From NCBI GenBank assembly GCA_963840855.1, contig CAWJBB010000027.1:160001-224000 (forward strand): a DNA stretch of 64,000 nucleotides, in the 5' to 3' direction. Of the stretch, positions 9,648 through 50,488 are shown one piece after another. The stretch is from an uncultured delta proteobacterium (GTDB lineage: Bacteria > Desulfobacterota > Binatia > UBA9968). The position numbers were made by a program, and so were the translations under genes. The notes below the pieces were generated by a model, which ran no database searches, had not been told where the DNA came from, and saw only the letters and a list, made by a program, of their open reading frames with translations. Within the stretch, counting starts at the first letter, position 1, and the number at the start of each line of letters is the position of its first letter.

Positions 9648-10332
9648 GTCGCGGTAGGGACCGCCCTTGCGAGCGGCCCCCCGCACAGATCCGTACGTGA
9701 GGAATTACCTCATACGGCTCTTACCTCGGGTTCATGTGACGGCCAGCCGCTCCTTGGATACGAATAAAGCATAAGGCTTGTCGTACGCGCCACAACCCCT
9801 GTGACTCGCATCCCCGGCTCTGGGTCCGGCACGAGTGCGCTTGTGGTGCGTTCCCCTTGGTCGACCTCCTTCCCTCTGCGGACTCCGCTGCCAACGCATA
9901 CGCGTCGGCTTTGTTCGCCCGCTTCGTTGGTACTATGAGGTCGTCCGACTCCACCGCAGACGTGCATGTCGACATTACGGCTTTTAGCCTTCTTCGACCG
10001 TCCCAAACTCCATCGAGGGTGGGCGTCTGCAGGGCCTCCCGGTTCTCGCGCATGGAGTTTCCCCACATGCCTAGGGTCTCTGACTCCGCGGTGTCGAAGG
10101 ACCGCTCGCGCCTAACGCTGCCCTTCATGTTGCCTTCCCCGTATCAAGACACGGTCGGCACACCGAAGTGGTGATTTCGGAGCTCCATACCTGGCCTGTG
10201 TGTACCCCTGTCAACGCTTCGCCCGCGTCCTTTCGGACCCAGACGCATGACTCGGAGCCAAAATGGTGCGCTACTCCTTTCTTGTGCGGCTCTCTCATCC
10301 GCTACTCCATGCCGGTTTATCCCGGCGCTTTC
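9648..10332 (-). mobile_element. Group II intron RNA with RT/maturase ORF deleted (685 nt)
   Basis: Domain V GAGCCGTATGAGGTAATTCCTCACGTACGGATC; domain VI ending CCCTACCGCGAC; 5' region GCGCCGGGATAAACCGGCATGG; EBS1 loop CTTGAT complementary to exon ATCAAG. Confidence 0.9.
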
Positions 10333-48683: not shown

Positions 48684-49412
48684 ATGAACGGCGTAGAAGA
48701 GAAGATCGTCGCGCTGATCGCCGATCTCGATCATCCGGAAAAGCCCAAAATCCGTGCTGCCGTGGACGCCCTGCTCGGACTATCCGCCGATGCGCCCGGT
48801 CTAAGAGCGGCGCTTGAACAGGCGCTCAACGATGAACAACGCAAAAATCGCTGGGCGGTTGCCCACGTACTCGGCCATTTGCCCCAACCTTCCAGCGCTG
48901 TCATTCGGGTATTACTAGATAGTCTCGATCATAGGGAACCGGACATCCGCTGGGCCATCGCTCTGTTGCTGGTTCGAATCGCCAGGGTTGAAGGCGACCT
49001 CGCGAACCTGCTCTTGGCACTCTCGGCAGACGGCACTGTGAATCAGAGGCGAATGGCTATTTACTGCATTCGTGATTTACAGGTTACCGATGACGCCAGC
49101 ATGCGGGCACTTTTGGCCGCGGCCAGGGACGAAGAGCCAACCGTCAGAGTCGCCGCGCTGACCAGCTTGAGATCGCGCAGCGACGCAGGCGCCGCGGCGC
49201 GCCGCCAGCTTCTTGAGCGATTCGAAAATGATGAAGATGGGAGAGTGCGGAATGCCTCGGCCATCACCTTGGCGCAACTAGGGGCGCCGGATGAAGCGTT
49301 CATTCGAGCACTGCAACAAGCCGCGCAAAGCAGCGATCCCCGTGACCGGAAAGCGGCCCTCGCCGCGCTCGACTTGTTACAAAAAAATGGGCCCGCTCCA
49401 CACGACAGCTGA
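48684..49412 (+). CDS. HEAT-repeat protein
   Basis: Repeated D.EP.VR.AA..L units. Confidence 0.85.
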   Translation: MNGVEEKIVALIADLDHPEKPKIRAAVDALLGLSADAPGLRAALEQALNDEQRKNRWAVAHVLGHLPQPSSAVIRVLLDSLDHREPDIRWAIALLLVRIARVEGDLANLLLALSADGTVNQRRMAIYCIRDLQVTDDASMRALLAAARDEEPTVRVAALTSLRSRSDAGAAARRQLLERFENDEDGRVRNASAITLAQLGAPDEAFIRALQQAAQSSDPRDRKAALAALDLLQKNGPAPHDS

Positions 49413-49433
49413 CGCTACCGCTGGAGCGGGCCC
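49381..49433 (-). terminator. Rho-independent terminator
   Basis: 12-bp stem GGGCCCGCTCCA/TGGAGCGGGCCC followed by T7 on minus. Confidence 0.8.
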
Positions 49434-49568
49434 CTAGGTGGTCTGAGGGGGATTCCCAGGCTCCAGGCCCGAATCCCCGTCAAAGATTCCGCCTAGAGCC
49501 TAAGTCTCAGCCACCTCGCAGTCAGTACATAAATCAATCATGTCTGGACCACCTCCTTTCCCTGCTGG
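49381..49568 (-). ncRNA. Putative structured small RNA / sORF transcript (MIDLCTDCEVAET*, 49500-49541)
   Basis: Own promoter, extended SD, stems CTAGG/CCTAG and GGGGATTC/GAATCCCC, terminator. Confidence 0.6.
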
Positions 49569-49573
49569 GCCGT

Positions 49574-49602
49574 AGTGTACGGAAGTGATCGGCGTCTGTC
49601 AA
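49574..49602 (-). promoter_or_regulatory. Sigma70-type promoter
   Basis: TTGACA-17 nt-TACACT. Confidence 0.8.
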
Positions 49603-49759
49603 TAAATATCATCGTCTTTGTCGATCAATCTTGACTAGCGTGACGGTCTTCAAATCGTTTTCATCGTGATAGTGATCGGACATGAAAGTAGCCTTTCTTA
49701 TGTCAGTTTGCTGGCCGGGAATCACTCAAAATTTCAGTTCAAGCAATGGCACCTTGCGC

Positions 49760-50164: not shown

Positions 50165-50488
50165 TGGAACCTCCTTAACTTGGCGTGGTGATGGCTCCGG
50201 AGTCTAAGGCGATTCGCCAGCCCACGCAAGTATTTCCTGGCCCGTTTTCCTGCCTCCTGCACCTGCGCGCTCCAGTTGACAAATCGCAAGCAGCTTCTCT
50301 ACAGTCGGGAAACCGACTCACCGCAGTTCCAAGTTGGGAATTCGTCCGGTCGCTTAACGCCGATGGCGCCTCCCCCCGGCCCGGCGCTGTGAGTCAGGCT
50401 GAGCGAAAGCGAAGGTAGGATCGAATCGCTCGCCTTCGCCTTGGTCAAAAACCCGTACTATAAAATATTTTCCCGAGAGGAGAGTTCG

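What the first reader, a model, noticed from the sequence alone, without database searches (positions are those of the whole stretch)
49381..49602. Stand-alone small transcript with a 17-nt anti-16S rRNA Shine-Dalgarno and a 13-codon CxxC ORF
Seen on minus: TTGACA-17-TACACT, then GAAAGGAGGTGGTCCAG, ATG, MIDLCTDCEVAET*, a structured segment and a strong terminator (~190 nt). Known: bacterial 16S rRNA typically ends ...CUGGAUCACCUCCUUUC. The leader can pair with it over 17 nt (one G:U), far beyond a normal SD. Seen: a downstream CTCAGACCACCT can pair with a second internal AGGTGGCTGAG, with the SD, or with CTAGGCGG, giving alternative folds. Inference: a ribosome-binding or sequestering sRNA, a type I toxin-antitoxin-like mRNA, or a switch-regulated micropeptide. 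I do not recognise it as a named family.
Basis: partly seen in the sequence, partly recalled or inferred. Interest (0 to 1): 0.72.

Follow-up and report, generated by a model that had tools for sequence, protein, structure and literature searches.

The report
Small mRNA with giant ribosome-binding site
This is a real, conserved, stand-alone mini-mRNA whose leader can pair with almost the whole free tail of 16S rRNA; it belongs to a little-studied but already described kind of ribosome-binding small mRNA whose function is still unknown.

Summary
On the minus strand lie a promoter-like site, a 17-nt leader complementary to this genome's own 16S 3' end (one G:U), a 13-codon ORF, a structured body and a strong terminator.

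It is not an orphan. It matches Rfam Ms_IGR-5 (RF02471) over the full model length but below threshold (39.5 bits, cut-off 45). It shares that family's blocks and a covarying helix. It is also the same kind of object as rreB/rreR of alpha-proteobacteria (Hahn 2016): a small mRNA with a 17-nt Shine-Dalgarno that binds 30S, is weakly translated, and has no known function.

My own covariance model finds single copies in 56 of 61 genomes of the order, 73 of 151 Actinomycetota, 57 of 151 genomes of an Ignavibacteriales-containing phylum and 15 of 151 of the Leptospira phylum.

Across lineages the peptide is not conserved, and CxxC is specific to this lineage. Conserved features are the long leader, an open frame, a stop fixed 9 nt after an internal GAGGUG, and pairing of that GAGGUG with a downstream CACC strand.

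I read it as a ribosome-engaging RNA whose translation opens an internal SD/anti-SD helix. The type I toxin reading is rejected. It is a new member of a known kind.

The parts
49597..49602 (-). -35-like hexamer TTGACA
   Evidence: The same hexamer stands at the same place in the own-type relatives.
49574..49579 (-). -10-like hexamer TACACT, 17-nt spacer
   Evidence: Relatives carry TAAACT, TACACT or TAGACT.
49556..49567 (-). Region of the RNA 5' end. The predicted start is about 49566-49567. Contigs from RNA libraries end at 49556, 49558 and 49559.
   Evidence: The prediction follows from the spacing after the -10 (inference). In runs X4, X6 and X7 (three studies) the contigs stop at these places and run on into Illumina adapter letters. 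This is a hint, not proof.
49544..49560 (-). 17-nt leader GAAAGGAGGTGGTCCAG, complementary to the 3' end of the genome's own 16S rRNA (one G:U)
   Evidence: GAAAGGAGGTGGTC is invariant in 34 relatives and nearly so across phyla.
49518..49552 (-). P0: predicted irregular hairpin that encloses the start codon and uses the 3' flank of the SD
   Evidence: Centroid fold. It is 91% pairable in 34 relatives but shows no compensatory change. In other lineages there is a short GUCC/GGAC stem, mean 4.70 against 4.30 +/- 0.07 for permuted partners.
49500..49541 (-). sORF: ATG, 13 codons (MIDLCTDCEVAET), TAG
   Evidence: Indels in relatives keep the frame. An ORF is present in 147 of 150 and 45 of 51 loci.
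49511..49517 (-). Internal SD-like GAGGTGG (codons Glu-Val), 9 nt before the stop codon
   Evidence: The stop lies 15 nt after the first G of GAGGTG in 44 of 45 ORFs found with the model.
49506..49516 (-). P1, 5' strand AGGTGGCTGAG
49436..49447 (-). P1, 3' strand CTCAG-A-CCACCT (anti-SD-like; A49442 bulged)
   Evidence: It can also pair with the leader.
49458..49501 (-). P2: central hairpin AGG-CTCTAGG with CCTGGAG-CCT, starting inside the stop codon. It contains the inner stem P2a (49485-49489 with 49471-49475).
   Evidence: P2 is 97% paired, with pair 86:115 as GC in 20 and AU in 13 sequences. P2a is 95.7% paired, with pair 93:106 as UA 21, UG 7, CG 3.
49448..49454 (-). AATCCCC box just before the P1 3' strand. 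It can pair with GGGGATT at 49472-49478, an alternative to P2a that would make a pseudoknot with P2.
   Evidence: 93% paired. An AAUCC-like box is seen in 35 of 51 hits of my model, although the model itself favours it. Its partner is unresolved.
49381..49433 (-). Intrinsic terminator: 20-bp hairpin plus A-U7
   Evidence: Seven of its pairs show compensatory changes.

Best explanation
This is this lineage's single copy of a widespread, independently transcribed small mRNA. It is of the kind described as rre genes in alpha-proteobacteria (rreB/rreR) and is homologous to the actinobacterial sRNA Ms_IGR-5.

Shown here:
- A leader that can pair with 14-17 nt of the 16S 3' tail.
- A 10-16-codon ORF that is kept open in every lineage.
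- A stop codon fixed 9 nt after an internal GAGGUG.
- A long-range helix (P1) that pairs this SD-like GAGGUG-plus-extension with a downstream CACC-containing, anti-SD-like strand.
- A central hairpin and a terminator.

Inferred:
- The 30S subunit is captured unusually tightly by the leader. This was measured for rreB, not for this RNA.
- Initiation is slow.
- The one ribosome that does translate must open P0 and P1 and then terminates with the internal GAGGUG at SD-like distance from its P site.
- The conserved function therefore lies in the RNA-ribosome encounter rather than in the peptide. Candidate outputs are the RNA's own turnover, or release of the C-rich, anti-SD-like 3' segment.

The physiological output is unknown.
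For: Identity:
- Full-length matches to RF02471, 39.5 bits, E about 1e-7.
- The same model gives 167.6 bits in Mycobacterium, 48.6-55.1 in the Ignavibacteriales type, and 38-39 in divergent Actinomycetota.
- The joint alignment keeps the leader, TGYGAGGTGRCTG and the 3' CAG..ACC block.

Conservation:
- 56 of 61 genomes of the order, and 39 of 40 of the good-quality ones.
- Model R1: 73 of 151, 57 of 151 and 15 of 151 in three other phylum samples.

Translation is selected:
- 147 of 150 loci have an in-frame ATG/GTG/TTG, and 150 of 150 have the stop 6 codons after the Cys codon.
- Among hits found with the model, 45 of 51 have a canonical ORF. The other 6 have in-frame ATT or CTG. Shuffles give 7.3%.
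- Two variants (L188, L158) keep an ORF in another frame after a 1-2-nt change of the motif-to-stop distance.
- Ribosome footprints on MS_IGR-5 are reported in two mycobacteria (PMC4974804, passage).

Peptide not conserved:
- Only Glu-Val is constant. The 'Cys' codon is TGY, CGT, CTC, CTG, AGT, GCT or ACT in different lineages.
- W/R-T corresponds to the GGAC arm of P0.

Structure:
- P1 is 94-96% paired, with pair 68:178 as AU14/CG8 and pair 69:177 as GC15/CG6/UA4.
- CTGNN/NNCAG pairing scores 225 of 276 against 136 +/- 7 for shuffles.
- Fold z-score is -7.4.

Precedent: rreB co-sediments with 30S, is weakly translated, and its half-life depends on its start codon (PMC5711450).

Contigs from four RNA libraries hold the core.
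Against: - There are no binding, toeprint or Ribo-seq data for this RNA or this organism. Contigs cannot prove transcription, strand or level.
- For rreB, 20-fold overproduction did not change growth, and the authors argue against simple ribosome sequestration.
- Homology to rreB/rreR was not tested, because no sequences were at hand. The CC2171 model scores only 27 bits and its internal helix does not fit.
- P0 has no compensatory change in the own lineage.
- The SD-closed alternative fold is well formed only in this genus; pair 25:140 forms in 7 of 34.
- Within the own lineage the peptide is quite constant: C-x-x-C in 31 of 34 rows and CEVAET nearly invariant. A lineage-specific peptide role is therefore not excluded.
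- Covariation counts are made on related sequences and overstate independence.
Confidence: 0.55

Rival explanations
1. The product is the micropeptide. In this lineage it would be a 13-residue acidic C-x-x-C peptide (metal- or redox-active, or a binding partner), and the long SD only tunes its synthesis.
For: - The ORF is kept open everywhere.
- In the own lineage C-x-x-C is present in 31 of 34 rows and CEVAET is nearly invariant.
- RreB and RreR are each conserved within their own clades.
Against: - Across lineages only Glu-Val is constant, and it coincides with GAGGUG of helix P1.
- The wobble bases of GAG and GTG never vary in 30 relatives found by BLAST, while the Cys wobble does.
- The last two codons covary with the P1 partner.
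- Frame-shifted variants encode GGG instead of EV.
- Start codons outside this lineage are mostly TTG, with some ATT and CTG.
- Synthetic RreB and RreR were unstructured, and putative overproduction had no growth effect.
- No conserved neighbour could act as a modifying enzyme.
Confidence: 0.15
2. It is a trans-acting base-pairing sRNA. The C-rich 3' segment (AAUCCCC...CCACCU) would be a seed for the SD regions of target mRNAs. The sORF and P1 would act only as a translation-dependent mask for that seed.
For: - An AAUCC-like box and the CACC strand recur across phyla.
- The gene is a separate transcription unit with no neighbour shared between phyla.
- C-rich seeds are used by other actinobacterial sRNAs such as 6C (recalled, not from a call).
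Against: - No target was predicted or tested.
- The box is missing in some true members (L161-L163).
- The CACC strand is paired in the conserved fold.
- The most invariant element is the leader, which is complementary to rRNA rather than to mRNAs.
Confidence: 0.15
3. It is a type I toxin-antitoxin-like mRNA whose SD is held by an anti-SD until processing.
For: Predicted alternative pairing of the SD with a downstream anti-SD-like strand. It is a small, structured, stand-alone mRNA.
Against: - The peptide has 13 residues, is acidic and has no hydrophobic stretch.
- It is single-copy and syntenic in the order.
- It is core-like across phyla.
- The peptide is not conserved.
- No promoter-like site for an antisense RNA was reported in the 2-kb scan.
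- No match in plasmids or phages.
Confidence: 0.02
4. It is a cis-acting leader or attenuator, or a 3' UTR fragment, of a neighbouring gene.
For: Its layout (short ORF, then alternative helices, then a terminator) resembles ribosome-dependent attenuators.
Against: - The next gene downstream is convergent: a HEAT-repeat protein, found in 32 of 38 own-type loci. Actinobacterial loci also have a convergent gene, but a different one.
- It has its own promoter-like site, conserved in relatives.
- Neighbours differ between phyla.
Confidence: 0.03

Closest known systems
rreB / rreR ('ribosome-regulated expression') small mRNAs of alpha-proteobacteria (Hahn et al. 2016, PMC5711450; abstract, Results and Discussion read)
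   Same: - A stand-alone transcript of about 165-190 nt with its own promoter and terminator.
- A 16-17-nt stretch complementary to the 16S 3' end.
- An sORF of 13-18 codons directly after it.
- A peptide conserved only within a clade.
- Genomic context not conserved between clades.
- Part of the complementary region and the start codon predicted to lie in a hairpin.

Same-class relatives of the window (L161-L163) even have the rre-type GGTGATCCA-GTG, with the start codon touching the complement.
   Different: - The window's leader has one G:U and an ATG two bases after the complement.
- It lies outside the alpha-proteobacteria.
- The paper reports no internal GAGGUG/CACC helix or fixed stop.
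- Sequence homology to rreB/rreR could not be tested here, because figures and supplements are not held.
- Binding to 30S, weak translation and start-codon-dependent decay are measured for rreB only.
Rfam RF02471 Ms_IGR-5 (actinobacterial sRNA; M. smegmatis IGR-5)
   Same: - Full-length alignment.
- The same leader.
- The same (A/U)UG..UGYGAGGUGGCUG..UAG block.
- The same AAUYCC..CAG.CACC block and P1.
- A terminator.

The sRNA is reported as expressed, ribosome-protected and NAD-capped, and 'yet uncharacterized' (passages).
   Different: - The score is 39.5 bits, below the 45-bit cut-off.
- The central domain differs in sequence and length.
- There is a 1-nt bulge in P1.
- The start is ATG rather than mostly TTG.
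- There are two Cys codons instead of one.
- It comes from a different phylum.
Rfam RF01867 CC2171 (Caulobacter sRNA; Northern-validated in Methylorubrum, function unknown)
   Same: The consensus begins with GAAAGGAGGUGAUCCAG followed by GUG. It is a small terminated transcript with a long-range helix between the early ORF region and the segment before the terminator.
   Different: - The score is 27 bits against a cut-off of 75.
- It has no internal GAGGUG, and its internal helix does not fit the window.
- None of 7 other family members matched it at E <= 0.01.
- That CC2171 is the Caulobacterales rre gene is my inference. It is not stated in any text I read.
Type I toxin mRNAs with an SD sequestered by an anti-SD-like sequence (for example aapA1; only the search listing and abstract of PMC6733600 were seen)
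   Same: A small structured mRNA in which an anti-SD-like strand can mask an SD-like strand.
   Different: - No hydrophobic toxin.
- No antisense partner.
- Single-copy and core-like.
- In the conserved fold the masked element is the internal SD-like motif, not the true SD.

Membership tests
rre-type small mRNA (rreB/rreR, PMC5711450) | At least 16 nt of complementarity to the organism's own 16S 3' end, directly upstream of an sORF | tested here: met
   17 nt against the genome's own 16S gene, with one G:U. It is unique in the genome apart from the rDNA antisense. The paper's search used perfect complementarity, and the longest perfect run here is 11 nt.
rre-type small mRNA (rreB/rreR, PMC5711450) | Stand-alone small transcript with its own promoter and terminator, and an sORF of about 14-18 codons | tested here: met
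   Promoter-like site, 13-codon ORF and terminator. They are conserved in relatives. Contigs from RNA libraries hold the core.
rre-type small mRNA (rreB/rreR, PMC5711450) | GTG start codon whose first base belongs to the complementary region | tested here: not met
   The window has ATG two bases after the complement. The feature is met in same-class relatives L161-L163. The paper itself notes an ATG exception in Azospirillum.
rre-type small mRNA (rreB/rreR, PMC5711450) | Strong binding to 30S, weak translation, start-codon-dependent turnover | not testable with these tools
   Requires gradients, reporter fusions and half-life measurements.
rre-type small mRNA (rreB/rreR, PMC5711450) | Sequence or structure homology to rreB or rreR | not tested
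   No rreB/rreR sequence was available (figures and supplements are not held), and no alpha-proteobacterial genome handle could be reached.
Rfam RF02471 Ms_IGR-5 | cmscan score at or above the gathering score (45 bits) | tested here: not met
   39.5 bits, E about 1e-7, model positions 1-184 of 184. Divergent Actinomycetota members also score 38-39 bits.
Rfam RF02471 Ms_IGR-5 | Shared sequence blocks and base-paired architecture in a joint alignment | tested here: met
   A2 has 32 sequences from four lineage types. The leader, TGYGAGGTGRCTG and CAG..ACC are invariant or nearly so. P1 is 94.1% paired, with 3 covarying pairs.
Rfam RF02471 Ms_IGR-5 | Linked to seed-like members through intermediates | tested here: met
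   The Ignavibacteriales type scores 48.6 and 55.1 bits, above the cut-off. My model R1, built on all types, scores the window at 112.7 bits and Mycobacterium at 90.1 bits.
Rfam RF01867 CC2171 | Gathering score (75 bits) and its internal long-range helix | tested here: not met
   27 bits. The helix positions are marked as non-pairs in the alignment.
Type I toxin-antitoxin | Small hydrophobic or membrane-active toxin peptide | tested here: not met
   MIDLCTDCEVAET has 13 residues, 4 acidic residues and no hydrophobic stretch.
Type I toxin-antitoxin | Overlapping or nearby antisense RNA antitoxin | tested here: inconclusive
   No plus-strand promoter-like site within the element in the scan. There are no strand-resolved reads.
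Ribosome-dependent attenuator (leader peptide) | A co-oriented regulated gene downstream of the terminator | tested here: not met
   The downstream gene is convergent. The same holds in 32 of 38 own-type loci.

The most novel reading that the evidence does not exclude
Ms_IGR-5, the RNA in this window, the Ignavibacteriales and Leptospira types, and the alpha-proteobacterial rre/CC2171 genes would form one ancient superfamily of 'ribosome-probe' RNAs. Each would be a dedicated mini-mRNA that:
- seizes the whole free 3' tail of 16S rRNA;
- forces one complete, minimal round of initiation, helix unwinding and termination;
- hands the anti-SD from the 5' leader to an internal SD-like site placed at P-site distance from the stop codon.

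Such an RNA could serve as a sensor of free or newly made 30S subunits, as a parking place for them, or as a functional check on them, with its own decay or refolding as the read-out.
Probability: 0.15. Interest if true: 0.85.

Novelty: new member of a known kind. Interest (0 to 1): 0.55.

Why it matters
Small mRNAs with a 17-nt Shine-Dalgarno have been described only in alpha-proteobacteria, and their function is called elusive. Ms_IGR-5 is listed in Rfam as an uncharacterised actinobacterial sRNA.

This window shows that the same design exists in a further lineage. Followed outward, it shows one single-copy family present in roughly half of the sampled Actinomycetota and in parts of three other phyla.

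The comparison gives concrete, testable rules:
- The leader is conserved.
- An open frame is conserved, whatever peptide it encodes.
- The stop lies a fixed 9 nt after an internal GAGGUG.
- That GAGGUG is paired to an anti-SD-like strand.

These rules point to a function in the ribosome-RNA encounter rather than in the peptide. Genetically tractable carriers, such as M. smegmatis and Streptomyces, are available for testing it.

Tried and rejected
No earlier notes were seen.
- the second own-genome match to RF02471 (L002, 19 bits) lies inside a coding gene. It is a chance hit.
- no contig of the four RNA-library runs covers 49560-49750. Depths are per contig and cannot rank expression.
I repeated it with ORFs of at least 130 aa. 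No neighbour is shared between phyla.
I followed the tool's hint.
- meant to sample Pseudomonadota for CC2171. The genome labelled 'Gammaproteobacteria' (G061) turned out to share its phylum sample with the Mycobacterium genome. therefore sampled Actinomycetota: 2 of 151, none over the cut-off. Alpha-proteobacteria were never sampled.
- repeated the phylum (redundant).
- two of the six own-phylum hits (L164, L165) lack the internal motif and P1. I do not count them as members.
- L213 and L214 showed no motif and were dropped before the ORF count.
- 12 of 150 loci had no recognisable CAG..ACC strand, among them some Streptosporangiaceae-type copies.
- two competing pairings of GGGGAUUC are both over 93% pairable. 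One is with AAUCCCC, giving a pseudoknot. The other is with GGAAUC, which is nested. This is unresolved.
- the SD-closed fold cannot be tested by covariation because the SD never varies.
- literature searches for ncRv names and for the peptide strings found nothing.
- no match in plasmids or phages.
- Supplements of the papers were closed. Fig. S1 and the supplements of PMC5711450, which hold the rreB/rreR alignments, may bear on homology.
Full report
**1. What is there**

On the minus strand of 49602-49381 the sequence reads as follows:
- TTGACA, 17 nt, TACACT.
- About 13 nt further on, GAAAGGAGGTGGTCCAG.
- AC, then ATG ATT GAT TTA TGT ACT GAC TGC GAG GTG GCT GAG ACT TAG.
- A structured 60-nt segment, then CTCAGACCACCT.
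- A 20-bp GC-rich hairpin followed by A-T7.

The promoter scan lists the site with 10 of 12 matches. It found 2 sites in 2 kb where shuffles give 1.1, so that match alone is weak.

The assembly holds a 16S gene (G000:C59) that ends ...CTGCGGCTGGATCACCTCCTTT followed by ct. The leader pairs with it over 17 nt with one G:U, if the mature end keeps the next C. Among 12,009 GGAGG sites of the 7.1-Mb assembly, only this site and the antisense of the rDNA reach an 18-nt paired run in register. From recall of the E. coli 16S structure, the last three or four pairs (CCAG with CUGG) would invade the base of helix 45. The usable duplex may therefore be about 14 bp.

The 187-nt RNA folds far better than shuffles: -101.4 kcal/mol, z = -7.4.

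**2. It is conserved and single-copy**

A DNA search of 61 genomes of the same order found one match in 56. Among genomes at least 90% complete and at most 5% contaminated, it found one in 39 of 40. All 30 fetched loci carry the promoter-like site, the invariant leader, an ORF and the terminator.

Length changes in the ORF's first half are in threes: MIDLCTD, MNDDKCTV, MIDYLCTD, MIDDICIV. More distant families of the order keep only the stretch from leader to stop codon.

The neighbours are ordinary:
- a GFA-family gene upstream on the same strand;
- a convergent HEAT-repeat gene downstream;
- then an M24 peptidase.

The convergent HEAT gene accompanies the RNA in 32 of 38 own-type loci. No neighbour is shared with other phyla. 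There is no match in plasmids or phages.

**3. It has relatives with names**

Rfam at gathering thresholds reports nothing here. With E-values, two families align over their full length:
- Ms_IGR-5 (RF02471): 39.5 bits, cut-off 45, E about 1e-7.
- CC2171 (RF01867): 27 bits, cut-off 75.

- Most are Actinomycetota: Mycobacterium, Streptomyces, Kitasatospora, Pseudonocardia, Nocardioidaceae.
- Some are MAGs labelled Deltaproteobacteria, Syntrophobacter(ales) or Candidatus Binatia. These carry the window's type.
- There are also an Ignavibacteriales MAG and Leptospira weilii.

The actinobacterial copies read (T/A)TG-I-D-L-W-T-C-E-V-A-A-S/R-stop, followed by GCGAATTCCCCGCAGYCACCC and a terminator. 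This is the architecture of the window.

RF02471 scores 167.6 bits in Mycobacterium, 48.6 and 55.1 in the Ignavibacteriales type, and 38-39 in divergent Actinomycetota. The window's 39.5 bits is therefore typical of a divergent member of a family whose Rfam model is narrow.

**4. Distribution**

I built covariance model R1 from 32 sequences of all types. Its results on evenly drawn phylum samples:
- Own phylum: 6 of 151 genomes. By reading, four are true: the window's genome and three other families of the same class. Two are not.
- Actinomycetota: 73 of 151.
- Phylum of the Ignavibacteriales genome: 57 of 151 (one search repeated this phylum).
- Phylum of the Leptospira genome: 15 of 151, all with Leptospira-sized genomes.

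Matches are almost always one per genome. These are samples, so 'not found' does not mean absent. Alpha-proteobacteria could not be sampled (see section 9).

**5. What is conserved: translation, not the peptide**

In the 150 loci from the pattern search and the relatives:
- 147 have an in-frame ATG, GTG or TTG 7-13 nt after GGAGG.
- All 150 have the stop exactly six codons after the Cys codon, a position the pattern did not fix.

Among 53 hits found with the model, which are not forced by the pattern, 2 (L213, L214) showed no motif and were dropped. In the remaining 51:
- 45 have such an ORF.
- The other 6 have ATT or CTG in frame at the same place.
- Shuffling the flanks gives an ORF in 7.3% of trials.
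- The stop lies 15 nt after the first G of GAGGTG in 44 of 45.

Two variants changed the motif-to-stop distance by one or two bases. They keep an ORF in the other frame: LHSTSGGGSS and MPKRGDQWTGGGDRL.

Only Glu-Val (GAG GUG) is constant. The preceding codon is TGY, CGT, CTC, CTG, AGT, GCT or ACT.

The W/R-T of actinobacteria is the GGAC arm of a short hairpin with GUCC of the leader. The last two codons covary with a downstream partner. Start codons outside the window's lineage are mostly TTG: 77 TTG, 60 ATG and 10 GTG.

C-x-x-C is a feature of the window's lineage. It is present in 31 of 34 rows, and its first Cys codon lies in the predicted start-codon hairpin.

**6. Structure**

In 34 own-type sequences:
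- Helix P1 (AGGUGG-CUGAG with CUCAG-N-CCACCU) is 96% paired.
- P2 is 97% paired, with one pair GC in 20 and AU in 13 sequences.
- The terminator has seven covarying pairs.
- 0 of 500 shuffles reach the observed values.

Across phyla, P1 is 94.1% paired. Pair 68:178 is AU14/CG8/UG2/GU1/UA1, pair 69:177 is GC15/CG6/UA4, and pair 64:183 is GC24/AU4/GU2. In the larger set, the two bases after CTG pair with the two before CAG in 225 of 276 cells, against 136 +/- 7 after permutation. Members of the same class show GGTGGTGAC with GTCACCACC, and GGTGGTGTC with GACACCACC.

P1 is therefore real. It joins an SD-like GAGGUG at the end of the ORF to an anti-SD-like CACC strand just before the terminator.

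For the window's own sequence:
- The MFE instead pairs the true SD with that strand (8 bp).
- The centroid has P1.
- The two differ by 1.7 kcal/mol.
- The extra pairs of the SD-closed form exist in only 7 of 34 relatives.

The start-codon hairpin P0 is 91% pairable but has no compensatory change. Two competing pairings of GGGGAUUC are unresolved.

**7. Expression**

Eleven RNA-library runs from soils, sediments, ice and rhizospheres hold part of the 401-nt query. Four were laid, and contigs of all four hold the core. In three runs from three studies, a contig ends at 49556, 49558 or 49559 and continues into Illumina adapter letters. That is what a cDNA ending at an RNA 5' end near the first A of AAAGGAGG would give. 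It lies 8-11 nt downstream of the start predicted from the -10. Contigs cannot prove transcription, strand or level, so this is a hint only.

For relatives, the papers report the following (passages read):
- RNA-seq validation in S. lividans and S. avermitilis.
- Ribosome footprints on MS_IGR-5 in M. abscessus and M. smegmatis.
- An NAD cap and an A start in M. smegmatis, where the RNA is called validated but uncharacterised.
- A Northern blot of CC2171 in Methylorubrum.

**8. Comparison with what is known**

The closest description is Hahn et al. 2016 (PMC5711450; abstract, Results and Discussion read). For rreB of Bradyrhizobium japonicum they report:
- It is a 165-nt mRNA with a 14-codon ORF and a 17-nt perfect complement to the 16S 3' end.
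- It co-sediments with 30S.
- It needs the 5' extension of the SD for that localisation.
- Its half-life rises from 10 to 37 min when the start codon is replaced by a stop.
- Twenty-fold overproduction did not affect growth.
- Analogues were found in Caulobacterales, Rhizobiales, Rhodobacterales (rreR) and Rhodospirillales.
- The function is called elusive.

The text does not mention Rfam, Actinobacteria or Mycobacterium. It is the only paper in the library that holds both 'rreB' and 'Shine-Dalgarno'. Searches for Ms_IGR-5, CC2171 and their accessions gave only listings.

The window's RNA is thus a new member of a known kind. Within the searched library, the following appear not to be in print:
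- the link between Ms_IGR-5 and the rre design;
- the spread over several phyla;
- the fixed stop;
- the internal SD/anti-SD helix;
- the lack of peptide conservation.

**9. Mechanism and its limits**

Shown: the anatomy, its conservation, selection for an open frame, and P1.

Inferred:
- The leader captures 30S. This is by analogy with rreB.
- Initiation is slow, given the long duplex, the hidden start codon and the weak start codons in most lineages.
- A translating ribosome must open P0 and P1.
- At termination the internal GAGGUG sits 6 nt upstream of the P-site codon, a distance at which the anti-SD could re-pair.
- The freed CACC strand could close the true SD or meet other RNAs.

What the cell gains is unknown. 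The absence of a growth effect from rreB overproduction argues against bulk sequestration of ribosomes.

Several genomes in the counts are flagged unpublished: G009 and G015, and G066, G083, G113, G147 and G185, with L185. No claim depends on them alone.

Noticed in passing
window 9648-10295 (-): A group II intron: RF02005 D1-D4 (177.8 bits) and RF00029 domain V-VI (41.6 bits), both over their cut-offs.
   Followed up: no
window 49609-49683 (-): Between the GFA-family gene and the small mRNA's promoter lies a 24-codon ORF (MSDHYHDENDLKTVTLVKIDRQRR) preceded by AGAAAGG. It was read. Relatives have a different upstream gene, so it may be chance.
   Followed up: no
G061 / L091: A MAG labelled 'uncultured Gammaproteobacteria bacterium' carries a Mycobacterium-type copy (165 bits to RF02471). 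Its phylum sample is the same as that of a Mycobacterium genome. The label and the placement disagree.
   Followed up: partly
L148: In one actinobacterial copy, the central domain holds a direct duplication of about 35 nt (GCCGCTGAACGTCAGTGAAGCGGTCGAT..), while the leader, ORF and 3' block are intact.
   Followed up: no
L073 (Saccharopolyspora rosea) and L047/L068/L141: In these copies the sequence after the stop codon does not continue into the usual central hairpin and CAG..ACC strand. This suggests an insertion or a different 3' half.
   Followed up: no
L161-L163 (same class as the window's genome): These copies have the perfect complement GGTGATCCA fused to a GTG start, as in rreB/rreR/CC2171. 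They also have the internal GAGGTGG and P1 of the Ms_IGR-5 type, and repeat GGTGATC just before TGTGAGG. They look like a bridge between the two named designs.
   Followed up: partly
window 50276-50305 (+): A second promoter-like site (TTGACA-18-TACAGT) lies about 135 nt upstream of the enoyl-CoA hydratase ORF.
   Followed up: no
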